From the sequence record NC_052654.1: 64,000 bases of DNA. The stretch is one strand, 5' to 3'. Made by a program: the position numbers and the translations under genes. This DNA comes from Escherichia phage vB_EcoM-Ro121c4YLVW. The stretch's first letter is position 1. The number at the start of each line of letters is the position of its first letter. Of this stretch, positions 1,592 to 57,378 are shown piece by piece. The notes under the pieces are model-generated. The model was not told the DNA's origin and searched no databases. It saw only the letters and a program-made list of their open reading frames with translations.

Positions 1592-2197
1592 ATGCAACAT
1601 AGTGTAGTAGTCAACATGCCGAATAGTGGGGATAAATCTTTTGGTGTCCCTGCTAAAAAAGTGTGGAAAGCCCATTTTCATCTTACTTTATCTAACGTTA
1701 GTTCTGAAGAGTTGATGAAAGCAGCTAAGATTATTGGTGCCAAATGCACAACAATTGATTTACATCGGGATACAAAGTCTCAACGTGATCGTATGTTAAC
1801 AAAGTATCAAAGCGATCTCGACACTACTTTAATGTTGCAGTGTGTAGAAAAACTTGAGAATGCAGGTTTCAATGTTGTTCGTTACAAACTGGAACGAATG
1901 TTTAAACATGTTGCCTGTGTTCTTTTCATGGATCTAAGTAAAGAAAATTACGGAGAAGTTCACATTAAGACTTCAGCAAGTGATCCCGAAGTAGAAACAA
2001 ACTTCTTCCGTATTTCTTCTAATGCTGAAGAAATTGATTACCGATTTTATAATGCTCGCTTATATTCCGCAGAAGATAAGTTGCGTTTCAATGAAGCGTA
2101 TGATATGCTCTTGAACAGTGGGATACAGATAAAAGGCTACCACATAGAACAAGTGGTAGTGGACAGTAATCTTAACTTAGACGCATGGTGGGCTTAA
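1592..2197 (+). CDS. hypothetical protein; weak hint of a 2H-phosphoesterase-like H-x-T motif
   Basis: ORF with RBS GAGGAG. Contains HFHLTL (H-x-T-x) and a degenerate second motif VHIKT; assignment is speculative. Confidence 0.5.
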   Translation: MQHSVVVNMPNSGDKSFGVPAKKVWKAHFHLTLSNVSSEELMKAAKIIGAKCTTIDLHRDTKSQRDRMLTKYQSDLDTTLMLQCVEKLENAGFNVVRYKLERMFKHVACVLFMDLSKENYGEVHIKTSASDPEVETNFFRISSNAEEIDYRFYNARLYSAEDKLRFNEAYDMLLNSGIQIKGYHIEQVVVDSNLNLDAWWA

Positions 2198-2198
2198 T

Positions 2199-2855
2199 AT
2201 GACTATTAAACATATCTCTTTTGATGTATGGAACACACTGATCACAGCAAACTCCAATTACGCAGACATGCGAGCCTGGACTATCGCAAAATATGGAGAT
2301 ATTACGGAAGTGGAAGCAAGAGCAGCTTATAAAAAGATCAAAAAGGAACTGGATAATGCAGCACTTCAAGGCAAAGCCGAGTGTGCAGCATACGCTTGGG
2401 AAAGACTTGGTTCTGAACTTGGGATAACGCCTTGGAAGTCTGCAAAGCTTCGTTTCGAGTGTGAACAGTGGTTCCTTAAGTTTCCACCACACGTAGCCGT
2501 GGATCTGCCGATGTACTTGCTGTATCTTTCGGGGCGTTATGATTTGAGTATTAAGAGCAATACCAACTTCATATCAGGGGATATCCTGCGTCGTGCTTGT
2601 AAGTTTGATAGTTGGAATTGTTTTGAGTTCACCCATTTCTCGGATGAAGCTTTACTTTGTAAACCAGATCCGCGATTCTTTGCTCGCACGCTCACGTATT
2701 CTCCGGTCCCTCTGTTAGGGCACGAAGTATTGCACGTAGGCGATAGTGAAGAATATGATGGAAAATGTGTTGACTTAGGATTTAACTTCTGTCATATTAA
2801 GAACCCTAACGACTTACTAGAGAAACTTAAAAGAGGAGAAATTGTAAATGCGTAA
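2199..2855 (+). CDS. HAD-superfamily hydrolase (family IA-like phosphatase)
   Basis: Motif I-like FDVWNTL near the N-terminus, motif III LCKPDPRFF, motif IV HVGDSEEYD. Confidence 0.65.
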   Translation: MTIKHISFDVWNTLITANSNYADMRAWTIAKYGDITEVEARAAYKKIKKELDNAALQGKAECAAYAWERLGSELGITPWKSAKLRFECEQWFLKFPPHVAVDLPMYLLYLSGRYDLSIKSNTNFISGDILRRACKFDSWNCFEFTHFSDEALLCKPDPRFFARTLTYSPVPLLGHEVLHVGDSEEYDGKCVDLGFNFCHIKNPNDLLEKLKRGEIVNA

Positions 2856-3675
2856 TCAAACTCAAATTTTTGCAAATAAATTTGATGACCTGGAAACTGC
2901 TACTTTTGATATCAAAGATTATTCAAAATTGAAATTTGGTAGTAACCAAGCTGCGCGTCGTATGGGTAAAGAATTGGCACTTCAGTTTTTTGCTCAAGTG
3001 GCAATGAAACATATTGGGGAACAATTTGTTATCATCCCTTCTCCTTATAACCATGTGCATAATGCTGCAACAATGATGACAGATCATTTTATTAATTACT
3101 TTAATATGTTGCAAGCACAATATGATCAAGGTCGTTCAGCAGAACTGGATATTATTCATCGTAAAGTTAGCTATATCAACGATTATGGTTTCTTGGATAA
3201 AGCTAGTCGTAAGAAACTTATTGATGGGGATACATTCTACTGCAACAAAGAATTCTGGGGTGATAAGAAGCTTGTGTTCATTGATGATGTAAATATCACC
3301 GGAACTCATGAAGACAAACTGATTGAGATTCTTGATGAAAATCAAGTTAAAAATGATGTTTACTTCTTGTATTTTGCAAAATATGAAGGTAATCAAGCAG
3401 ATACTGAAGCTAAACTGAATTTTAACTACATCAATACACCAGAAGCGTTTGTTAAAATGATTAATGAAGAACGTGATGCACAGTGCCTTGTTCGTCCTAT
3501 TAAGTATCTTATGGGCCAAAATCACGAAGACTTCAAAATCATTCTTAGCCAATTGCCACACTACTATGTAGAGCAACTTTTCTTTGGATGTTTGGGAGAA
3601 GGTTACAACCGAATTTCAAAGTATGCTGAAAACTTTGAATTCTTGGATCGTTACACAAAACAACATATTCTGTAA
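2848..3675 (+). CDS. phosphoribosyltransferase (PRTase) domain protein
   Basis: PRPP-binding signature KKLVFIDDVNITGTHEDK (hydrophobic-DD-x-TGxT); start overlaps the HAD gene stop, suggesting co-translation. Confidence 0.65.
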   Translation: MRNQTQIFANKFDDLETATFDIKDYSKLKFGSNQAARRMGKELALQFFAQVAMKHIGEQFVIIPSPYNHVHNAATMMTDHFINYFNMLQAQYDQGRSAELDIIHRKVSYINDYGFLDKASRKKLIDGDTFYCNKEFWGDKKLVFIDDVNITGTHEDKLIEILDENQVKNDVYFLYFAKYEGNQADTEAKLNFNYINTPEAFVKMINEERDAQCLVRPIKYLMGQNHEDFKIILSQLPHYYVEQLFFGCLGEGYNRISKYAENFEFLDRYTKQHIL

Positions 3676-3688
3676 TAAGGAGCTAAAA

Positions 3689-4162
3689 ATGCTTAAAATG
3701 AAAACAGGTAATCTTATTGATGCCGCTAAAGCAGGAGAAGTAACTGTTATTGCTCATTGTTGCAATTGTATGTGTAATATGGGAGCAGGAATTGCTCCGC
3801 AAATTAAACGAGCATTCCCTTATGCATATGCGGCAGATTTAGACACAATGGCTGGTGATCAAAGTAAGTTAGGTTCTTTTAGTTTAGGGGTGCCAGACGA
3901 ACAATCAGACCCTTTGGTATATAATCTATACGGACAATACCGTTACGGATACAATGCTAAAGGTCGTCAGTTGGACTATGATGCACTTTACGATGCACTA
4001 ATAGCTATGGCTAATGATTTGCTTCTCCGTGACCAAAAATGTAAGATCGGCTTACCTATGATTGGCGCTGGATATGCTGGAGGTAATTGGGCTATCATCC
4101 AAGTGATGATTGAAGAAACTTTAGTAAAAACAGGTCACGATGTGACTATTTATAAACTTTAA
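3689..4162 (+). CDS. macro domain protein, TARG1/OARD1-like (ADP-ribose or O-acetyl-ADP-ribose hydrolase family)
   Basis: VIAHCCNCMCNMGAGIAPQIKRAFP and C-terminal IGLPMIGAGYAGGNWAIIQVMIEETL...VTIYKL parallel the TARG1 pattern (HCISEDCRMGAGIA...PRIGCGLDRLQWENV...ITVYTL) as recalled from memory. ATG 3689 with AAGGAG RBS; the track ORF starts earlier at 3584. Confidence 0.75.
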   Translation: MLKMKTGNLIDAAKAGEVTVIAHCCNCMCNMGAGIAPQIKRAFPYAYAADLDTMAGDQSKLGSFSLGVPDEQSDPLVYNLYGQYRYGYNAKGRQLDYDALYDALIAMANDLLLRDQKCKIGLPMIGAGYAGGNWAIIQVMIEETLVKTGHDVTIYKL

Positions 4163-4174
4163 GAGGAGATTAGT

Positions 4175-4396
4175 ATGGGTGTTTTTGCAGGTATTGTTGC
4201 AGTGGTAAGCTTTTTTGTTATTGCTTTTATGCTTAGTTTGATTCCAGCTTGGTTACTGTTGCTGGCTTACAACTATGTTGCTGAAGTTATGGGTCATGCA
4301 GATATCACTGTCCCAGTAACCTTCTGGACCGTGGTTTGTGTTTCGTTTATTCTGGCGGTATTACGAGGAATCTTTTCCTCTCATTCAACAAAATAA
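4175..4396 (+). CDS. small hydrophobic membrane protein (2-3 TM segments)
   Basis: RBS AGAGGAG; sequence dominated by hydrophobic helices; sits directly upstream of the TerC gene. Confidence 0.5.
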   Translation: MGVFAGIVAVVSFFVIAFMLSLIPAWLLLLAYNYVAEVMGHADITVPVTFWTVVCVSFILAVLRGIFSSHSTK

Positions 4397-4475: not shown

Positions 4476-5447
4476 ATGCAACTCGGTTTCCCAATTATTG
4501 ATGTAGTTGTTTTAGTTGGTATTTTGGCATTGTCTATTGGTATCGATTTCTTTGGTCATAAAGAGAATAAAGAAATTGGAATTAAATCTGCTTTGCTTTG
4601 GTCTGTTTTTTGGATTGCTTTAGCTTTAGGATATTACGCATTCATTTGGGTAGAGCATGGTAAAGAGTTTGCCGCACTTTTCCTAAGTGGATATGTGTTG
4701 GAAAAGAGTCTTTCTGTAGATAACCTAATGGTGTTCATGGCAATTTTTGCAAGCTTTGGAATTAAGAGCACACATCTCCAACATAAGATTTTACTTTGGG
4801 GTATTGCAGGTGCCATTGTCTTCCGAGGTGTTTTTGTTGCAGCAGGGACAGCTTTGTTTAACCTGCATTGGTCGGTCCAAGTGTTGTTCGGTCTGATTGT
4901 AGCTTGGTCTGCCGTTGCTATTATCAAAGGTGGTGACGAAGAAGATATTGATTACTCTAAACATTGGGCTGTTCGTTTAGTAGGTAAAGTTCTGCCTGTG
5001 CACAACGCACTGGATGGTGAAAAGTTCATTACCATTAAGAATGGTATTAAATATGCAACTCCTGCTCTTCTTTGTGTGTTTGTTATTGAGCTTACAGATA
5101 TTGTGTTCTCTTTTGATTCAGTTCCGGCTGTTATTGGTGTGACACAAGAACCTCTGCTAGTTTATTCTGCAATGCTGATGGCTGTTCTTGGTTTACGTGC
5201 ACTTTTCTTTGTGTTAAGTGTAGCTGTGAAATATCTGGTTCACTTAGAGAAAGCTGTTGCTGTGGTTCTGGTGTTTGTTGGTGCTAAACTTATGTATCAC
5301 CCGTTCGGTGAAACACTTCATGCCAAGTGGTCATTCCTCCCGCATGATATTTCCCCTAACGTAAGTCTGATGATTGTTCTAGGCACATTAGCTCTTGGTG
5401 TTATTGCAAGCTTTATCTTCCCTGAAAAAGAAGAAGCTGCTGTTTAA
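4476..5447 (+). CDS. terC: TerC/Alx-family integral membrane protein
   Basis: Strong resemblance to TerC/Alx signatures: LSGYVLEKSLSVDNLMVF and IKNGIKYATPALLCVFVIELTDIVFSFDSVPAVIGVTQEP; multiple TM helices; RBS GAGAGGAG. Confidence 0.9.
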   Translation: MQLGFPIIDVVVLVGILALSIGIDFFGHKENKEIGIKSALLWSVFWIALALGYYAFIWVEHGKEFAALFLSGYVLEKSLSVDNLMVFMAIFASFGIKSTHLQHKILLWGIAGAIVFRGVFVAAGTALFNLHWSVQVLFGLIVAWSAVAIIKGGDEEDIDYSKHWAVRLVGKVLPVHNALDGEKFITIKNGIKYATPALLCVFVIELTDIVFSFDSVPAVIGVTQEPLLVYSAMLMAVLGLRALFFVLSVAVKYLVHLEKAVAVVLVFVGAKLMYHPFGETLHAKWSFLPHDISPNVSLMIVLGTLALGVIASFIFPEKEEAAV

Positions 5448-7072: not shown

Positions 7073-7663
7073 ATGTATACCGAGAGAGACTTGCAACTCT
7101 TGTGGTGGGAAGTGATGCAGGAAATAAAAGAAGATTTTCCTGTTTACTACAACATGTTACGTGAAGCAGGATATAAAGCTTGTGTTAGAAACAAAGTGAA
7201 TAACTCTTTCGGTTGGTGCAACTACCGAGATAAAATTGTTGTTGTAAATTGGCACTTGCATAAGAACTCTACAAGAGATATGATCGTGGATACAATGAAG
7301 CACGAAATTGCTCATGCTATTGATGGTTGTATGGGTAAGTTTAGTAGACACGGTGCTCATTGGCAAAAACTGGCAGCAGAGTTAGGGGCTAATCCTAAAG
7401 CCACTTCCAAAGAGCCGTTGAACCACGAATATAAATATGTTCTTGTTCTGGTAGATAGGTTTGCGACAAGATGTGTTAGAGGTTATAATCGTAAACCTAA
7501 TCGCATGTACCCAGGTAAGCAACCTAATATGTGGTTGAAATCAGATAAAGAAGGGACCGAAGGAAAATTATGGTTGTATAAATGGGACGATTGGGTTAAA
7601 GTAGCTAAAGAGTACGGTGTTTCACCATATATAAGAGATGCAGAAGAGGAGAATGAAGAATGA
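7073..7663 (+). CDS. SprT-like zinc metallopeptidase domain protein
   Basis: HExxH motif in MIVDTMKHEIAHAIDGCMGKFSRHGAHW, as in SprT/Spartan-type proteins. Confidence 0.55.
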   Translation: MYTERDLQLLWWEVMQEIKEDFPVYYNMLREAGYKACVRNKVNNSFGWCNYRDKIVVVNWHLHKNSTRDMIVDTMKHEIAHAIDGCMGKFSRHGAHWQKLAAELGANPKATSKEPLNHEYKYVLVLVDRFATRCVRGYNRKPNRMYPGKQPNMWLKSDKEGTEGKLWLYKWDDWVKVAKEYGVSPYIRDAEEENEE

Positions 7664-8772
7664 CAAGTCCATTTTTAAAAGCAGCTACTGGCGGTCAGAA
7701 GAAGCCTGAAATGAGCGTATTTGCTGCAACAACAGATGCAAGTAAATCTGTATTCGCTCCAAGCGTGTTAGATGCCAGTCCTGTTTATGCACCAGCGGCA
7801 CCGCAAGAAGTTCCAGTTTTGCCTTCTATGACCCGACAAGAGATCGAAGAGATTGGGGCAGAGGCAGGAACAACCTTGCGTTCCTTGAATGCCGAGGTAT
7901 TAAAACATCAACGTAGTAATCAAGGCGATCAGATGAGTGAACGACTCACAGCTTTGATTAAACAGGCAAAACAACTTGATCCAAACTCTATTAAACAAAG
8001 CAAGGGTATTACTAAACTCATTAAAAAAGTTATGGGTATGAAAGAAGATCTGTTTGGGGAGTTTGATAATGTTAATAACCGTATTGAAGAGTTGGTAAAA
8101 AACCTTCAAATGGATATTCGCAAAGAAGAAGATTCCTTGGTATATCTTGAAAAGCTACATCAAGCTATTGGACAATATGCTGCAAGTTTGAACCGAGATA
8201 TGCAGCTTCTAACAGCAACCTATGAAAAAGAAGAACAAGCTTTGGCTGCTCTTCCAGAAGATGCAGTAGAACAGCGACAAGTGATCCGAGATACTTTGGA
8301 TCTTCTGGAGATTCGTATTGCAGATTTAAAAGCATTGCGCCTACTGTGTGTCCAAATGGGACCGCGTGTACAAGGTATGCAAAAAGTTTCTGCAAGCTTA
8401 ATGCGATCTGCGCGTAACATAGTAAATAATGTTATTCCTGCTTACTCTGCTAACTTCTCAATGTATATCGAGAGCTTACGTCAAATGAAAGCAGCAGAGA
8501 CGCAGAATAACGTTCTTGATGAATTTAACCTGGCAATTAAACTGGGTAGCGATCTTGCCACACAGAATCAGATAGAAGCAGCAGCACTGGCTAACCGTCA
8601 AGTGTTGGATATTGAAACTCTGCGTCACGATCAGGAAAACTTGGTTAAGATGTTGGAAGAAACTAACCGCATCAATACGGAAGCCCGTGCTGCTCGTGTT
8701 GATTATATTAATGAAGTTCAATCTTTGGAAGACGGGATGGTAGCTGCTGTGAAACGAGGGCTTGGTAAATGA
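7660..8772 (+). CDS. alpha-helical coiled-coil protein; possibly TelA-like (unverified)
   Basis: ATG overlaps the SprT stop (ATGA). 370 aa, Ala/Gln/Leu/Glu-rich helical sequence with a disordered N-terminus. TelA-like call rests only on size, composition and Ter-gene context. Confidence 0.6.
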   Translation: MTSPFLKAATGGQKKPEMSVFAATTDASKSVFAPSVLDASPVYAPAAPQEVPVLPSMTRQEIEEIGAEAGTTLRSLNAEVLKHQRSNQGDQMSERLTALIKQAKQLDPNSIKQSKGITKLIKKVMGMKEDLFGEFDNVNNRIEELVKNLQMDIRKEEDSLVYLEKLHQAIGQYAASLNRDMQLLTATYEKEEQALAALPEDAVEQRQVIRDTLDLLEIRIADLKALRLLCVQMGPRVQGMQKVSASLMRSARNIVNNVIPAYSANFSMYIESLRQMKAAETQNNVLDEFNLAIKLGSDLATQNQIEAAALANRQVLDIETLRHDQENLVKMLEETNRINTEARAARVDYINEVQSLEDGMVAAVKRGLGK

Positions 8773-10170: not shown

Positions 10171-10965
10171 ATGTCCGAGAAAATCAGCCTGAAAAAACGT
10201 CAAGAAAACCTTGCTTTCTCTCTGAAAAAGAATAAGAACCTGAATGAAGGTAAGATTGTTCTTCGTGTAGCATGTGCTCTAGATATTTCTGGTAGTATGC
10301 ATGGTCTATATTCTAGTGGGGTAGTGAGTGATTTTGTAGGTAAACTGCTTCCTTTTGGTATGCTGTTCGACGATAATCAACAAATTGATATGTGGGCCTT
10401 CAATACGAGTTCCCAAGAGCTTACTCCAGCAACAGCAGACGTTTACGATGACTATGTTGGTAAATGTATGCGTAATGTTCGTATCGGAGGTGGAACAAAT
10501 TACGCCCCTGTAATGGCAGATATCTACGATGAGTATTTTGGCACTGTTACCAAATATATTACCACTAAACAAGTGGTACAAGAGGAGGCTCCAAAGAAAG
10601 GCTTCTTTAATCGTCTGCTTGGTAAAACTGAAACAGTGTCTGTAGAGCGTGAAAAAGTTGTAGCTGTATCTGAACCAGGTGCTGACGTTACCCCTGGTGT
10701 TGTATTCTTCCAGACGGATGGTGAGAATGGTGATCCTAGTGCTGTTCGTCGTCTTATTGAAGAGAATAAGAATAAACCTATTTATTGGTTCATGGTTGGC
10801 GTTGGTAATGAGAAGTTTGGCTTCCTGAAAGAACTGGCAAATGCTTATGATAATGTTGGTTTTATTGGCATTAAAGATTTAGACTTGACAGATTCAGAGC
10901 TTTATGACAAACTCTTATCTGAAGAGTTCGGAGAGTGGGTTGTTAAAGTAGGTGCTAAAAAATGA
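10171..10965 (+). CDS. vWA domain protein, TerF/TerY-like
   Basis: MIDAS motif DISGSM, then GGTNY and TDGENGD; N-terminus MSEKISLKK resembles the TerD-family N-terminal motif. Confidence 0.8.
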   Translation: MSEKISLKKRQENLAFSLKKNKNLNEGKIVLRVACALDISGSMHGLYSSGVVSDFVGKLLPFGMLFDDNQQIDMWAFNTSSQELTPATADVYDDYVGKCMRNVRIGGGTNYAPVMADIYDEYFGTVTKYITTKQVVQEEAPKKGFFNRLLGKTETVSVEREKVVAVSEPGADVTPGVVFFQTDGENGDPSAVRRLIEENKNKPIYWFMVGVGNEKFGFLKELANAYDNVGFIGIKDLDLTDSELYDKLLSEEFGEWVVKVGAKK

Positions 10966-11475: not shown

Positions 11476-12078
11476 ATGACTGATAAAATTTCCCTGAAAA
11501 AAGGCTCTAGCGAAAAAATTTCCCTGAAGAAAGTTGCTCCGGCTCTGAAAGAACTGCGCCTGGAATTCTCTTGGAAATCTGATTCTAAACTGGATCTGGA
11601 TGTAAGTGCACTGGTTTGTCGTCATAATGCCGCTGGCAATCCTGAAATGCTGTCCGCACGTCATCTGGTTTGCTATGCTAACAAGTTTGATCCTGAACGT
11701 TCTACCTTCGCTGGTGACGATGTTCGTGATGGGACTGGCAGCATGGAGCAGATTGATATTACTCTGGCTAAAATCTCTCCTGATGCACAAGAGATTGCCT
11801 TTGTTCTGACCATTGATGATGATACAGGTCTGAAACGTTTTGGTCATGCTTCTGAAGGTATGCTTAAAATCTTCGACTCCGAGCGTAATGTGGAAATTCT
11901 GGATTTTGACTTCCTGGCTCCTGAAGTAGCTGGCAACACAATCTGCCACGTGGCTTCCCTGGTTCGTGAAGATGGAGAATGGAAGCTGAAAGCATATGGT
12001 GTAGGTAAAGCTGGTCTGGATATTTGCGATGTGGTGATGGCCTTCGGTGGTAAAAAAGAATGGTATGAATGTCCATAA
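11476..12078 (+). CDS. terD: TerD-domain protein
   Basis: Matches recalled TerD signatures: N-terminal ISLKK repeats, DLDVSALVC, GDDVRDGTGSMEQIDITL, IAFVLTIDDD, DGEWKLKAYGVGKAGL. Codon usage is strongly E. coli-optimal (CTG, CGT, GGT). Confidence 0.9.
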   Translation: MTDKISLKKGSSEKISLKKVAPALKELRLEFSWKSDSKLDLDVSALVCRHNAAGNPEMLSARHLVCYANKFDPERSTFAGDDVRDGTGSMEQIDITLAKISPDAQEIAFVLTIDDDTGLKRFGHASEGMLKIFDSERNVEILDFDFLAPEVAGNTICHVASLVREDGEWKLKAYGVGKAGLDICDVVMAFGGKKEWYECP

Positions 12079-12177: not shown

Positions 12178-12699
12178 TTGCTGATAAAAAACTTTGTAAC
12201 AGTTGCGTTACTATCCTTAACTGCTTTTACATTTACACCTGTTGTGGCGAAAGCCGAAGCTGCAAACGTAAAAACCGCTAAAGTAGTTCACAAATGTACA
12301 AAGCAATATAATGATAAAATTCTATTAGCTTGTGCAATTTACGCAGAAGGTCGCGGTCTGGGTAAAAAAGGAATGAATGCCGTTGGGAATGTGGTAATCA
12401 ACAGAAGAAATGATGCCTACTTCCCTAACACAGTCAAGGGAGTCTTGTTCCAGAAAGGGCAATTCTCATATGCGAAAACTTTTAACGTGACAGAGAAAGA
12501 TAAGTGGCAGGAAGCAAAAGCAATAGCGGAGCGTTTACTTTATTTAGAGAAACATTTTCCTGAATTGCGGTCTGTTTTAGATGTTACTAAAGGTGCTCTA
12601 TACTTCAAGAAACGGAATATAAGGACACACTGGGAGCGTGATATGCGTCTTGTTTATCGAGATAAAGTGCATGGTTTCTATCTACCAAAGGGGAGTTAA
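12178..12699 (+). CDS. cell-wall hydrolase (SleB/Hydrolase_2-like) with N-terminal signal peptide; candidate secreted endolysin
   Basis: TTG start after AAAGGAGG; signal peptide with AKA-EA cleavage-like site; CAIYAEGRGLG...GNVVINRR...FQKGQFSYAKTF resembles SleB-type hydrolases. Confidence 0.7.
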   Translation: MLIKNFVTVALLSLTAFTFTPVVAKAEAANVKTAKVVHKCTKQYNDKILLACAIYAEGRGLGKKGMNAVGNVVINRRNDAYFPNTVKGVLFQKGQFSYAKTFNVTEKDKWQEAKAIAERLLYLEKHFPELRSVLDVTKGALYFKKRNIRTHWERDMRLVYRDKVHGFYLPKGS

Positions 12700-12700
12700 A

Positions 12701-12985
12701 ATGCAAGAAGATAATACTGTTGTTGTAGCAAGTTACCTGGTTGTCGGTCTTACCGAAGAGGACGTATACTACACCCGTAAACATTTGGAAGCATACACTA
12801 CTTTGTTTATGGAAGATGAAAAAGATGTAGATAAATATAGCATTGATATGATCAACGACAGTATTTATCCTTGTATGGTTCTTAAAGTAGATGCTGTGCT
12901 GTGGGAGCGTTTTGCAAGGACTCATGATGCTGTAGAATGCTCCGCAGTAATGTCTCAAAACAACATTTTAGGGGAGATTCACTGA
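12701..12985 (+). CDS. hypothetical protein
   Basis: ATG at 12701 just after the endolysin stop; the track version starts at 12638. Confidence 0.45.
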   Translation: MQEDNTVVVASYLVVGLTEEDVYYTRKHLEAYTTLFMEDEKDVDKYSIDMINDSIYPCMVLKVDAVLWERFARTHDAVECSAVMSQNNILGEIH

Positions 12986-56392: not shown

Positions 56393-56940
56393 TATTTGTC
56401 CCTACGATAAAAAGAAACAGGTCCATAATTTCGCAAATAATTAACGTTGCGTGTATTACGATCAACACTTGCAACATTACCAAGACCATTTACAGAGTTA
56501 GGATCACTGTTTACTCGATCAATCTCACGAGCATCAACACCACCAATAAGAACTTTACTGGTTGCTCCTCGTCCTGCCGTGCACCCAGGAATGACCATAA
56601 GACCATTTAAATAGTTATGATAGATATCTTCCCACGGAGATTTATAAGTGACTTGACCGTTGTTAAATTTAACTTCAACTTCGACTTCACCCATCTTTTC
56701 TCTGCGGGACATAGCTCCTCCTGTTTGAGTACTGTTGTTAAGAACATCGTTGTTCCATAAATACTCTAAAACAGAAATCAAGCTGTTCCACAATACTGCA
56801 CACTTATCCTTATCTTCATTCCCTATAATATCAATCCAAGTTTGGATGATCTGAATCAGCATCGCATCTGGCAATACTTCTTGAGAAGGGTTATAAACAA
56901 GAATTCGGATCAGTGGTGCCAACTCTACCGCATTCAGCAT
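56392..56940 (-). CDS. head-tail connector / head completion protein, putative
   Basis: ORF in the neck module, coupled to the downstream gene. Confidence 0.45.
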   Translation of the reverse strand: MLNAVELAPLIRILVYNPSQEVLPDAMLIQIIQTWIDIIGNEDKDKCAVLWNSLISVLEYLWNNDVLNNSTQTGGAMSRREKMGEVEVEVKFNNGQVTYKSPWEDIYHNYLNGLMVIPGCTAGRGATSKVLIGGVDAREIDRVNSDPNSVNGLGNVASVDRNTRNVNYLRNYGPVSFYRRDK

Positions 56941-56949
56941 AAGCCCACC

Positions 56950-57294
56950 TTATTTTTTACGAAGGGAACGTTTTTTAGCTGGAGTGTCTACCGCTTCTAC
57001 TTTTAAAACTTCTTCTTTGATTTTTACAGGTGCATAGTCTTCGTAACTTACAAGATAGTAACCCATGTGTTCTTCACTTGCAAAAGGATGCACAAGAATA
57101 CCTGTTTCTTCTCTCAAACGCGTGAGGAAGTGAATGAAGTTTCCACCTAATGCAATACGACCATCTTTCAGATAGAAAGACATTGGTGGCGCAGATACTA
57201 ATGTTTTATCAGCATCAATCAGTGGTGAAAGCGATTCGAAATCACGAATCATTTCGTGATAACTAAAGTAACGTTTCAATTCTGGGTTTGACAT
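56950..57294 (-). CDS. hypothetical neck/head protein
   Basis: ATG at 57294 with GAGGAG RBS; the track ORF begins at a GTG at 57348 that would overlap the terminator hairpin. Confidence 0.45.
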   Translation of the reverse strand: MSNPELKRYFSYHEMIRDFESLSPLIDADKTLVSAPPMSFYLKDGRIALGGNFIHFLTRLREETGILVHPFASEEHMGYYLVSYEDYAPVKIKEEVLKVEAVDTPAKKRSLRKK

Positions 57295-57325
57295 ATCAAT
57301 CTCCTCGTTGTAAACTCTTATTGTA

Positions 57326-57358
57326 AACAGAAAAGGCTCGCCCATCACGGACGAGCCT
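57326..57358 (-). terminator. terminator-like hairpin (minus strand) after the major capsid gene
   Basis: Minus strand reads AGGCTCG-loop-CGAGCCT followed by TTTTCTGTTTAC. Confidence 0.5.
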
Positions 57359-57378
57359 CTAATCTTAACAGAGTTCTA

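What the first reader, a model, noticed from the sequence alone, without database searches (positions are those of the whole stretch)
1592..4162. TARG1-like macro domain adjacent to PRTase and HAD genes: candidate ADP-ribose / NAD-linked counter-defence module
ORF 3689..4162 has a TARG1/OARD1-type macro domain pattern. TARG1-like macro domains, including the DarG antitoxin macro domain, remove ADP-ribose from protein or DNA. Upstream are a PRTase with a canonical PRPP loop and an HAD phosphatase, and the ORF at 1592..2197 has a weak 2H-phosphoesterase-like H-x-T motif. Together these suggest ADP-ribose or nucleotide processing, for example reversing DarT-type DNA ADP-ribosylation or countering NAD-depleting immunity. 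Alternatively they are the metabolite-synthesis arm of the Ter cluster.
Basis: partly seen in the sequence, partly recalled or inferred. Interest (0 to 1): 0.7.

Follow-up and report, generated by a model that had tools for sequence, protein, structure and literature searches.

The report
Three separate phage accessory units, not one
The flagged stretch of this E. coli phage holds three separable units (an ADP-ribose-removing enzyme of a family phages use against bacterial immunity, a two-enzyme pair belonging to the phage's tellurite-resistance-type gene set, and an orphan relative of a bacterial antitoxin-position protein) rather than one cooperating module.

Summary
The four ORFs are real, conserved genes of a Phapecoctavirus (99.6% identical to phage ukendt). 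The macro domain (3689-4162) has the TARG1/ALC1-class fold, but TARG1's catalytic Lys84 and Asp125 are Gln83 and Ala. That is the SCO6735 type, shared with T4 Tk.4 (AdfM, anti-DarTG2) and with macro genes inside Vibrio-phage NARP1 operons. The PRTase (PF15610, canonical PRPP loop) and the HAD gene form a strictly conserved pair, found in every context examined. Two Bacteroidetes loci embed the pair in classical Ter operons. No macro gene accompanies it outside the Phapecoctavirus/Justusliebigvirus-type phages. One related phage keeps the macro and ORF201 genes but lacks the pair in the 16 kb held. ORF 1592-2197 is not a 2H phosphoesterase by fold. It belongs to an uncharacterised family that sits just upstream of AbiEii/AbiGii nucleotidyltransferase toxin genes in bacteria, and is fused elsewhere to NUDIX, HD or Ham1 domains. 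Verdict: three separable units sit side by side. "ADP-ribose counter-defence" is plausible for the macro alone. The single-module idea is not supported.

The parts
1592..2197 (+). ORF201: a protein with a tandem ferredoxin-like fold. It is an orphan member of the family that occupies the antitoxin position upstream of AbiEii/AbiGii nucleotidyltransferase toxin genes.
   Evidence: PADLOC 'AbiEi' models PDLC02277/02279 match at E=5e-13 over the full length. hhalign against the bacterial AbiEii partners gives 98.7% probability, E=3.6e-16. Three of three plasmid loci have the homologue overlapping an AbiEii gene by 4 nt. AF2 model pLDDT is 82. No solved fold is close.
1673..1687 (+). The H28-x-H30-x-T32 motif on the first beta-strand of ORF201.
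   Evidence: Invariant in 18 homologues. H30 and T32 are also kept in the bacterial AbiEii partners.
2199..2855 (+). A HAD-superfamily hydrolase (REG-2/HDHD3/PH0253-like), the first gene of the conserved HAD-PRTase pair.
   Evidence: The family profile matches PDB 2om6 at E=1.7e-18 and HDHD3 (3k1z) at 1.7e-10. NCBIfam DREG-2 matches at 2.5e-8. The gene sits directly upstream of the PRTase in every context examined.
2223..2237 (+). HAD motif I, D9-V-W-N-T13. The nucleophile Asp is present; the Asp+2 position is Trp.
   Evidence: Invariant in the 8 phage and rhizobial homologues aligned. The same FDVWNTL motif is in PDB 2om6.
2848..3675 (+). A ComF-like type I phosphoribosyltransferase (Pfam PRTase_3), the second gene of the pair. 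It overlaps the HAD gene by 8 nt.
   Evidence: PF15610 matches at E=6e-42, 144 bits against a cutoff of 28.7. Homologues lie in Ter operons of two Bacteroidetes MAGs.
3271..3309 (+). The PRPP-binding loop, L142-VFIDDVNITGT-H154.
   Evidence: D146, D147, I150, T151, G152 and H154 are invariant in 10 homologues.
3689..4162 (+). A stand-alone macro domain of the ALC1/TARG1 class, Gln type (SCO6735-like), in the Tk.4/AdfM-Adpp phage family (phrog_335).
   Evidence: Sequence and profile matches. Predicted structure and fold search. It is 33-37% identical (by method) to T4-type Tk.4 and 36-41% identical to macro genes inside NARP1 operons.
3764..3766 (+). Asn26, equivalent to SCO6735 Asn27 and DarG Asn22.
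   Evidence: Invariant in the 18- and 21-sequence phage-family alignments and nearly invariant in the wider 11-sequence set. Its role in SCO6735 is described.
3935..3937 (+). Gln83, at the position of TARG1 Lys84, DarG Lys80 and SCO6735 Gln85.
   Evidence: Shown by the alignments. Invariant in the family, including T4 Tk.4. The SCO6735 Q85A mutant is inactive.
4064..4090 (+). The diphosphate-binding loop G126-A-G128-Y-A-G-G132-N-W134. Ala130 lies at the position of TARG1 Asp125.
   Evidence: G126, G128, G132 and W134 are invariant.
4175..4396 (+). A small two-TM protein that follows the macro gene in related phages. Its role is unknown and its membership of any unit is uncertain.
   Evidence: A tblastn hit lies directly after the macro gene in L001-L005, L008 and L009. 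The only Pfam hit is a weak DUF6755 match.
4476..5447 (+). TerC membrane protein.
   Evidence: PF03741, E=7.5e-40.
7660..8772 (+). TelA.
   Evidence: PF05816, E=3e-33.
10171..10965 (+). vWA domain protein, TerF-like.
   Evidence: PF10138, E=1.6e-37.
11476..12078 (+). TerD.
   Evidence: PF02342, E=3e-28.

Best explanation
Three functionally separable accessory units lie side by side in the early/middle gene row of a Phapecoctavirus.

(1) The macro protein is a stand-alone ADP-ribose hydrolase of the ALC1/TARG1 class. It uses the Gln-type active site of SCO6735 (Asn26 positions Gln83; there is no catalytic Lys/Asp). Inferred function: like its relative T4 Tk.4/AdfM, it strips ADP-ribose that DarT2-type toxins attach to thymidine in phage ssDNA, so replication can go on. 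It may also hydrolyse ADPR-1''-phosphate.

(2) The HAD and PRTase_3 genes are an obligate pair forming the 'nucleoside-like metabolite' arm of the Ter system. Inferred mechanism: the PRTase joins an unknown base-like acceptor to PRPP. The HAD enzyme then processes the 5'-phosphoribosyl product. The product acts with the phage's TerC, TelA, vWA-TerF and TerD proteins.

(3) ORF201 is an orphan copy of the protein that sits in the antitoxin position next to AbiEii/AbiGii nucleotidyltransferase toxins. Inferred function: an antitoxin-like counter-defence factor or nucleotide-processing enzyme.

Shown: the homologies, the folds, the residue states and the gene-neighbourhood patterns. Inferred: all substrates and phenotypes.
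For: Macro.
- Fold and class.
- Gln83 and Asn26 are invariant and shared with SCO6735 and T4 Tk.4.
- SCO6735 removes thymidine-linked ADPr and rescues cells from DarT toxicity; its Q85A and N27S mutants lose activity.
- A T4 tk.4 knockout is sensitised to DarTG2.
- A chimallivirus macro protein, also named AdfM, counters DarTG2.

Independence of the units.
- The macro family is in 2936 phage records and the PRTase in 155.
- L006 has macro and ORF201 genes without HAD/PRTase.
- HAD+PRTase occurs without a macro gene in L010, L011, L013, L014, L025, L026 and 12 of 12 bacterial loci.

Ter link.
- The window holds TerC, TelA, vWA-TerF and TerD.
- Locus L041 reads TerD x3, vWA x3 (one with TerY_C), PP2C, kinase, HAD, PRTase.
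- Locus L040 reads TerD x2, OmpA-family protein, HAD, PRTase, OmpA-family protein, TerC.
- Iyer et al. 2021 already assign PRTase+HAD to the Ter signal-synthesis arm in phages.

ORF201. In a distant phage its homologue is directly followed by Acb1, with a NADAR gene 4 kb away.
Against: - No experiment exists for any of these four proteins.
- The macro protein scores somewhat closer to macro genes inside Vibrio-phage NARP1 operons (110 and 83 bits) than to T4 Tk.4 (72 bits). Its main substrate could therefore be ADPR-1''-phosphate rather than ADPr-DNA.
- It lacks SCO6735 Lys34, which matters for that enzyme's DNA activity. The position is Ala33 here, though T4 Tk.4 has Ser there.
- Adjacency of ORF201, HAD, PRTase and macro is kept across phages down to 52-65% identity (L004, L008). 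A lineage-specific cooperation cannot be excluded.
- In Rhizobiaceae the pair has no Ter genes within 10 kb.
- The HAD enzyme lacks the Asp+2 general acid/base, so a simple phosphatase step is uncertain.
- The 'antitoxin' status of the ORF201 family rests on gene position and a PADLOC label only.
Confidence: 0.55

Rival explanations
1. The macro, PRTase, HAD and possibly ORF201 proteins cooperate as one ADP-ribose/NAD-linked counter-defence pathway. For example, the macro enzyme would free or dephosphorylate ADP-ribose, and the PRTase would rebuild a nicotinamide nucleotide, analogous to NARP1-AP.
For: - The gene order ORF201-HAD-PRTase-macro, with gaps or overlaps of 1 to 13 nt, is kept in Phapecoctavirus- and Justusliebigvirus-type phages at 52-100% protein identity.
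- Relatives of this macro lie between Adps-like and Namat-like genes in Vibrio phages. A NARP1-associated macro protein from Vibrio phage Gary is an ADPR-1''P phosphatase that enables NAD+ rebuilding.
- A Rhizobium phage has a NUDIX gene two genes downstream of the PRTase.
Against: - Dissociation runs both ways. The pair occurs without a macro gene in 18 other loci, and the macro gene occurs without the pair in L006 and in most of the 2936 phage records that hold the family.
- No Adps or Namat homologue exists anywhere in the genome (tblastn over the window plus ukendt 1-100 kb).
- PRTase_3 is a ComF-like type I PRTase found in Ter operons. It is not a Nampt-type enzyme.
- All co-occurrence comes from one phage lineage, so it can be explained by descent.
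Confidence: 0.1
2. The macro protein is mainly a small-molecule enzyme, an ADPR-1''-phosphate phosphatase (Adpp/Poa1p-like). It would act against RES-type NAD+ phosphorylase defence, or clear by-products of the phage's own Sir2 and RNA-repair enzymes. It would not be a DNA de-ADP-ribosylase.
For: - The family profile matches Poa1p at E=7e-12, and the fold search lists Poa1p among the top hits.
- The protein is 36-41% identical, over its full length, to macro genes in the Adpp position of Vibrio-phage NARP1 operons. That is slightly better than its match to T4 Tk.4.
- Adpp activity has been shown for Vibrio phage Gary.
- Phage ukendt encodes Sir2, an RNA ligase and a phosphoesterase elsewhere in its genome. 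Iyer et al. propose macro domains in such RNA-repair and NAD by-product pathways.
Against: - Without Adps and Namat, converting ADPR-1P to ADPR would not restore NAD+.
- The only in vivo phenotype known for a coliphage member of this family is anti-DarTG2.
- The closest solved relative, SCO6735, is a DNA and protein de-ADP-ribosylase.
- Macro domains are often promiscuous, so the two activities need not exclude each other (my own knowledge).
Confidence: 0.25
3. ORF201 is a third enzyme of the HAD-PRTase (Ter) metabolite pathway. It would make or trim the nucleotide-like substrate, rather than act as an independent antitoxin-like factor.
For: - It ends 1 nt before the HAD start codon, and this arrangement is kept in L001-L003, L008 and L009; in L004 and L005 it lies 240 nt upstream.
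- Its domain is fused to NUDIX, HD_4 and Ham1p-like nucleotide hydrolase domains in other proteins. That points to nucleotide chemistry.
Against: - It is present without HAD/PRTase in L006, L015, L017, L018 and L019.
- It is absent from every HAD-PRTase context outside this phage lineage, including both bacterial Ter operons.
- Its bacterial homologues pair with AbiEii toxin genes instead.
Confidence: 0.12

Closest known systems
T4 Tk.4 / AdfM (anti-DarT factor, macrodomain; bioRxiv 10.1101/2025.11.20.689424)
   Same: Both are stand-alone phage macro proteins of about 155 aa. They share the broad family of T4-type Tk.4 macros (2936 phage records), are 33-37% identical by method, and carry the same N-L-Y-x-Q motif with Gln at the TARG1 Lys84 position. 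Both are orphan genes with no DarT partner.
   Different: The identity is low, and the window protein sits in a different subclade. No DarTG2 phenotype has been tested for any Stephanstirmvirinae phage.
Streptomyces coelicolor SCO6735 (PDB 5e3b) and Bacteroides BT1257 (2fg1/2afc)
   Same: These are the closest solved sequences (E=5e-13 for the single sequence; 2e-22 and 2e-18 by profile). They share the Gln85 and Asn27 equivalents, the longer mobile loop with basic residues, and the GxGxAGGxW loop.
   Different: SCO6735 Lys34, important for its DNA activity, is Ala33 here, and Val25 is Cys24. SCO6735 is a bacterial chromosomal gene under a DNA-damage promoter, not a phage gene.
Human TARG1/OARD1 and the DarG antitoxin macro domain
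   Same: Same fold class. TARG1 is the best structural match (TM 0.80/0.89), and DarG is also among the top hits.
   Different: The catalytic Lys (TARG1 K84, DarG K80) is Gln, and TARG1 Asp125 is Ala. There is no DarT-binding C-terminal domain. The NCBIfam DarG model scores 34 bits against a cutoff of 250.
Adpp, the macro ADPR-1''P phosphatase of NARP1-AP operons (bioRxiv 10.64898/2026.01.28.702374)
   Same: The window protein is homologous to macro genes lying between Adps-like and Namat-like genes in Vibrio phages F88 and 166E36-1 (36-41% identity, same Gln motif).
   Different: The window phage has no Adps or Namat, and its macro gene is not in a NARP1 operon. I did not compare it with the tested Gary protein itself.
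The Ter-system 'nucleoside-like metabolite' arm (PRTase + HAD; Anantharaman, Iyer and Aravind 2012; Iyer et al. 2021, PMC7824862)
   Same: It is a PRTase_3 plus HAD pair next to TerC, TelA, vWA-TerF and TerD. The same pair lies inside TerD/TerY-P and TerD/TerC operons of Bacteroidetes. The 2021 paper notes complete Ter systems with PRTase and HAD in some phages.
   Different: The ATP-grasp component named in the literature search terms was not seen here. Product, acceptor base and role in a lytic phage are all unknown. The HAD enzyme has Trp at Asp+2.
AbiEi antitoxins of AbiE type IV toxin-antitoxin/abortive-infection systems
   Same: Bacterial homologues of ORF201 sit directly upstream of AbiEii/AbiGii genes and overlap them. 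PADLOC labels the family AbiEi.
   Different: ORF201 has no Pfam AbiEi domain. The model shows no N-terminal helical domain such as the winged helix I recall for canonical AbiEi; its fold is tandem ferredoxin-like. In the phage it is an orphan with no AbiEii gene.

Membership tests
ALC1/TARG1-like macro domain class | Macro fold with closest similarity to TARG1, DarG and SCO6735 | tested here: met
   The AF2 model has pLDDT 90. The Foldseek top hits are TARG1 4j5s (TM 0.80/0.89), BT1257, Poa1p, DarG and SCO6735. The family profile matches them at E from 2e-22 to 3.5e-9.
TARG1/OARD1 proper | Catalytic Lys84-Asp125 dyad | tested here: not met
   Lys84 aligns with Gln83 and Asp125 with Ala130.
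SCO6735-type (Gln-type) ALC1-like hydrolases | Gln at the Lys84 position, positioned by a conserved Asn (SCO6735 Gln85 and Asn27) | tested here: met
   Q83 and N26 are invariant in the 18- and 21-sequence family alignments. Their roles in SCO6735 are described.
SCO6735-type (Gln-type) ALC1-like hydrolases | Lys34, which contributes to DNA-substrate activity | tested here: not met
   The aligned residue is Ala33, and Ser in T4 Tk.4.
DarG antitoxin | Full-length DarG: macro domain plus DarT-binding domain, encoded next to darT, with catalytic Lys80 | tested here: not met
   The protein is 157 aa and consists of the macro domain only. NCBIfam NF048014 scores 34 bits against a cutoff of 250. The neighbours are the PRTase and a small TM protein. 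The Lys80 position is Gln.
AdfM (T4 Tk.4) | Homology to Tk.4 | tested here: met
   BLASTP gives 37% identity over 124 aa, E=1e-21. Records annotating the match as tk.4 are among the tblastn hits (CC31, Cba120).
AdfM (T4 Tk.4) | Protects the phage from DarTG2 | not testable with these tools
   This needs a knockout phage plated on DarTG2 hosts. No paper links Stephanstirmvirinae to DarTG.
Adpp of NARP1-AP | Encoded within or next to an Adps-Namat operon | tested here: not met
   tblastn with the Adps-like and Namat-like proteins of Vibrio phages F88 and 166E36-1 found no homologue in the window or in ukendt 1-100 kb, which together cover the genome.
Pfam PRTase_3 (PF15610) | Score above the gathering threshold, and a PRPP-binding loop | tested here: met
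   144.2 bits against a cutoff of 28.7. The DDVxITGxH loop is invariant.
Ter-system metabolite arm (PRTase + HAD) | PRTase paired with a HAD gene and linked to TerD, TerC, TelA or vWA genes | tested here: met
   The pair is present in every context examined. Ter genes lie in the window, in L025, and in L040 and L041. The link is not met in Rhizobiaceae loci within 10 kb.
HAD phosphatase | Motif I DxDxT, with Asp+2 as general acid/base | tested here: not met
   Motif I is D-V-W-N-T, invariant in 8 homologues. Motifs II (Ser), III (Lys155) and IV (G181-D182...D187) are present. Pfam PF00702 scores 21.4 bits, below the cutoff of 26.4.
2H phosphoesterase (ORF201) | Two H-x-T/S motifs on a bilobed 2H fold | tested here: not met
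AbiEii-partner family (PADLOC 'AbiEi' PDLC02277/02279) | Sequence homology across the full length | tested here: met
   PADLOC E=4.7e-13, residues 29-200 against model positions 4-192 of 195. hhalign gives 98.7% probability, E=3.6e-16.
AbiEii-partner family (PADLOC 'AbiEi' PDLC02277/02279) | Encoded directly upstream of an AbiEii/AbiGii nucleotidyltransferase gene | tested here: not met
   This holds for the bacterial homologues. In the phage, the flanking genes are a small ORF and the HAD gene, so the phage copy is an orphan.
Canonical AbiEi (Pfam AbiEi families) | A Pfam AbiEi domain | tested here: not met
   No Pfam family matches at E up to 0.1, and none matches the Deinococcus or Streptomyces partners. 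The model is all beta-alpha-beta repeats.

The most novel reading that the evidence does not exclude
ORF201 could be the first phage-encoded orphan 'antitoxin' directed against AbiEii/MenT-type nucleotidyltransferase abortive-infection toxins. On this reading it defines an uncharacterised, enzyme-like domain with a tandem ferredoxin-like fold and invariant HxT, RxKxE and ExHxK strands. Phages deploy the domain alone or fused to NUDIX, HD or Ham1 nucleotide hydrolases. Together with the macro protein, the locus would then hold two independent orphan-antitoxin counter-defence genes flanking the Ter pair.
Probability: 0.25. Interest if true: 0.7.

Novelty: new member of a known kind. Interest (0 to 1): 0.45.

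Why it matters
The macro gene would give Phapecoctavirus therapeutic-candidate phages a built-in answer to DarTG2-type (or NAD-phosphorylase-type) immunity. This is directly testable, because T4 and chimallivirus precedents now exist.

The analysis also sharpens what is actually unknown. The HAD-PRTase pair is a strictly conserved two-gene unit shared by phages, rhizobial replicons and Bacteroidetes Ter operons, and its product has never been identified.

The side observation on ORF201 gives a concrete handle on an uncharacterised partner of AbiEii toxins. About 1000 cluster representatives match its profile.

Tried and rejected
Dead ends.
- Anantharaman et al. 2012 (PMC4104200) is not held. 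The Ter-arm definition therefore rests on Iyer et al. 2021 and on my own neighbourhood tests.
- The Foldseek afdb50 library was unavailable.
- phmmer of the PRTase against PDB sequences found nothing, and phmmer of ORF201 found nothing.
- The viral-contig scan for the PRTase returned a single locus.
- Context look-ups for the Ham1 and NUDIX fusion proteins gave only contigs of about 1-2 kb.
- tblastn of the ORF201-family member P0210 against plasmids found no match.
- Literature searches found nothing linking Phapecoctavirus to macro domains, Stephanstirmvirinae to DarTG, or phage factors to anti-AbiE activity.

Considered and rejected.
- ORF201 as a 2H phosphoesterase or Acb1-like enzyme: no fold support.
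- The PRTase as a Nampt- or Namat-like NAD-rebuilding enzyme: it belongs to a different family, and the genome has no Adps or Namat.
- An AAA-ATPase link for ORF201: it is fused in L004 and adjacent in L017, but the window and the other loci searched contain no AAA homologue. The L004 fusion looks like a deletion variant of the separate genes seen in L005.

Full report
**What the window is.** The flagged stretch is 99.6% identical to Escherichia phage ukendt and matches 77 phage records in all, most of them Escherichia phages; the relatives inspected are classified in Phapecoctavirus or Stephanstirmvirinae. The window maps to ukendt 11151 down to 1 and continues across the record start.

The + strand carries a tight gene row:
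- NrdD (cut by the window edge) and NrdG
- orf74 (1352-1576)
- ORF201 (1592-2197)
- HAD (2199-2855)
- PRTase (2848-3675)
- macro (3689-4162)
- a small two-TM protein (4175-4396)
- TerC (4476-5447)
- a SprT-like protein, then TelA (7660-8772)
- vWA-TerF-like (10171-10965)
- TerD (11476-12078)

The four flagged ORFs are annotated CDS in relatives and are conserved down to 50-80% protein identity in metagenomic phages. They are real genes.

**The macro domain.**
- Pfam Macro is just above threshold (23.3 against 22 bits).
- phmmer against PDB sequences ranks SCO6735 (5e3b, 5e-13), BT1257, TARG1 and T. aquaticus DarG.
- A family profile raises these to between 2e-22 and 3.5e-9, and adds yeast Poa1p at 7e-12.
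- An AF2 model built on 21 homologues (pLDDT 90) matches TARG1 best (TM 0.80/0.89), followed by BT1257, Poa1p, DarG and SCO6735.

The TARG1 catalytic dyad is absent: Lys84 aligns with Gln83 and Asp125 with Ala130. This is the SCO6735 state. That enzyme also lacks both residues. Its Gln85 and Asn27 are essential, it removes ADP-ribose from thymidine in ssDNA, and it rescues cells from DarT (PMC9411070). Gln83 and Asn26 are invariant in the phage family. SCO6735 Lys34, which matters for its DNA activity, is Ala33 here.

**Which phage macro family.**
- tblastn finds the family in 2936 phage records, including T4-type phages where the hit is the gene annotated tk.4.
- A Tequatrovirus Tk.4 is 33-37% identical by method and carries the same NLYxQ motif.
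- A 2025 preprint shows that a tk.4 knockout sensitises T4 to DarTG2, and names the gene adfM.
- A chimallivirus macro protein of the Lys type does the same.

A second precedent competes. In Vibrio phages F88 and 166E36-1 the homologous macro gene (36-41% identity, also Gln type) lies between a Prs-like gene and a Nampt-like gene. This is the NARP1-AP layout. In that layout the macro protein Adpp of Vibrio phage Gary was shown to be an ADPR-1''-phosphate phosphatase that defeats RES-type defence.

By bit score the window protein is slightly nearer the Vibrio macros (110 and 83) than Tk.4 (72). In a rough NJ tree both characterised types fall outside its subclade. The phage has no Adps or Namat anywhere in its genome, so a NARP1-AP role is not available to it. 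I favour the AdfM-like role but cannot exclude the phosphatase role or dual activity.

**HAD and PRTase.** The PRTase is a strong PF15610 (PRTase_3, ComF-like) member with an invariant DDVxITGxH PRPP loop. The HAD gene overlaps it by 8 nt.

The HAD-then-PRTase pair recurs in every context I examined:
- divergent Stephanstirmvirinae, including Klebsiella phage KP13-16
- Rhizobium, Brevundimonas and Caulobacter phages
- two rhizobial plasmids
- 12 of 12 bacterial loci from a genome scan

None of those outside the Phapecoctavirus/Justusliebigvirus-type phages has a macro or ORF201 homologue within the 8-10 kb of flank held.

Two Bacteroidetes MAG loci embed the pair in classical Ter operons:
- L041: TerD x3, vWA x3 (one with TerY_C), PP2C, protein kinase, HAD, PRTase, P-type ATPase
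- L040: TerD x2, OmpA-family protein, HAD, PRTase, OmpA-family protein, TerC

Iyer et al. 2021 already describe PRTase and HAD as the signal-synthesis arm of Ter systems, and note Ter systems in some phages.

One caveat concerns the HAD enzyme. Its motif I is DVWNT, with Trp at the Asp+2 general acid/base position, invariant in all eight homologues. The motif is shared with the structural-genomics protein PH0253 (2om6). HDHD3 (3k1z) has DVKDT. 'Phosphatase' is thus an assumption.

Unexpectedly, ORF201 matches two PADLOC 'AbiEi' models over its full length at E=5e-13. A profile search of 1.84 billion representatives finds 1009 relatives. Some of these are fused to NUDIX, HD_4, Ham1p-like or HTH_3 domains, and all ten sampled relatives hit the same PADLOC models.

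In Deinococcus, Streptomyces and Kitasatospora plasmids the homologue sits directly upstream of an AbiEii/AbiGii nucleotidyltransferase gene and overlaps it by 4 nt. The Deinococcus toxin is confirmed as PF08843. hhalign of the phage family against these partners gives 98.7% probability, E=3.6e-16. The HxT, RxKxE, ExHx[K/R], SxN and D...DxW positions are kept.

Distant phage homologues stand alone among small early genes. One is directly followed by Acb1, with a NADAR gene 4 kb downstream. ORF201 is therefore an orphan copy of an uncharacterised family that occupies the antitoxin position. An antitoxin-like counter-defence role is a hypothesis, not a finding.

**Are the units coupled?** Dissociation runs both ways.
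- L006, a related phage of about 150 kb, keeps ORF201, macro, TerC, TelA and vWA genes but has no HAD or PRTase in the 16 kb held.
- KP13-16 keeps HAD, PRTase and Ter genes but has no macro or ORF201 gene within 10 kb.
- All co-occurrence of macro with PRTase comes from one phage lineage and can be explained by descent.

I conclude that three separable units sit side by side. I give about 0.1 to a lineage-specific cooperation.

**Novelty and interest.** The macro protein is a new member of a family whose counter-defence roles were published in 2025-2026. The Ter arm in phages was predicted in 2012 and 2021 and remains without biochemistry. The ORF201-AbiEii link appears not to be described in the literature I could search.

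Noticed in passing
window 1592-2197; L023:5932-7367; L024:5914-8033; L047:2824-4916: ORF201 belongs to a family of about 1000 cluster representatives. In three actinobacterial or Deinococcus plasmids it overlaps the start of an AbiEii/AbiGii toxin gene by 4 nt. PADLOC calls the family 'AbiEi', although it has no Pfam AbiEi domain.
   Followed up: yes
proteins P0183, P0200, P0207, P0252 (NUDIX); P0173 (HD_4); P0301 (Ham1p-like); P0306 (HTH_3): The ORF201 domain is fused to several different nucleotide pyrophosphatase or hydrolase domains and to an HTH domain. This hints that it binds or processes a nucleotide-derived ligand.
   Followed up: partly
L015:8001-9021 and 12545-12976: In a distant phage contig of about 110 kb, the ORF201 homologue (36% identity) overlaps the start of an Acb1 (anti-CBASS) gene, and a NADAR gene lies 4 kb downstream. 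This looks like an anti-defence neighbourhood.
   Followed up: partly
window 2223-2237 (HAD motif I): HAD motif I is DVWNT, with Trp replacing the Asp+2 general acid/base. It is invariant from coliphages to rhizobial plasmids. PDB 2om6 has the same motif, and HDHD3 has DVKDT. The chemistry of this HAD subfamily is unclear.
   Followed up: partly
L041:1996-13489 (Tannerella sp. MAG): One strand carries a complete run: TerD x3, vWA x3 (one with TerY_C), PP2C phosphatase, protein kinase, HAD, PRTase_3 and a P-type cation ATPase. That is a TerY-P-type cluster joined to the metabolite pair.
   Followed up: partly
L004:4765-6228; L017:6001-7671: A 487-aa ORF fuses an AAA ATPase to the ORF201 domain in one metagenomic phage. 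It is probably a deletion variant of the separate genes in L005. A homologous AAA gene follows the ORF201 homologue in an unrelated phage. No AAA homologue lies in the window or in the other loci searched.
   Followed up: partly
phage ukendt (NC_052661.1) 56566-57366 and 87638-89123, outside the window: The same phage genome encodes a Sir2-family protein and an RNA ligase plus phosphoesterase pair. These could generate ADP-ribose derivatives that a macro domain would process.
   Followed up: no
L044:1919-4471 (Vibrio phage 166E36-1): Two different macro 'phosphatase' genes flank the Adps-like gene. An HNH endonuclease gene is inserted between the Adps-like gene and the second macro gene of the NARP1-type operon.
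   Followed up: no
window 4175-4396: A 73-aa two-TM protein follows the macro gene in the Phapecoctavirus/Justusliebigvirus-type loci (L001-L005, L008, L009) but was not detected in L006. Its function is unknown.
   Followed up: no
L008:7457-8011: In one related phage a 184-aa gene with no Pfam hit is inserted between the PRTase and macro genes. The junction therefore tolerates insertions.
   Followed up: partly
L010:6283-6855 (Rhizobium phage RHph_TM2_3B): A NUDIX-domain gene, annotated as NMN adenylyltransferase/NUDIX, lies two genes downstream of the HAD-PRTase pair. No Ter genes were detected within 8 kb.
   Followed up: partly
window about 26000: GC skew changes sign near 26 kb, which suggests a switch of coding strand between the accessory-gene row and the genes that follow.
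   Followed up: no
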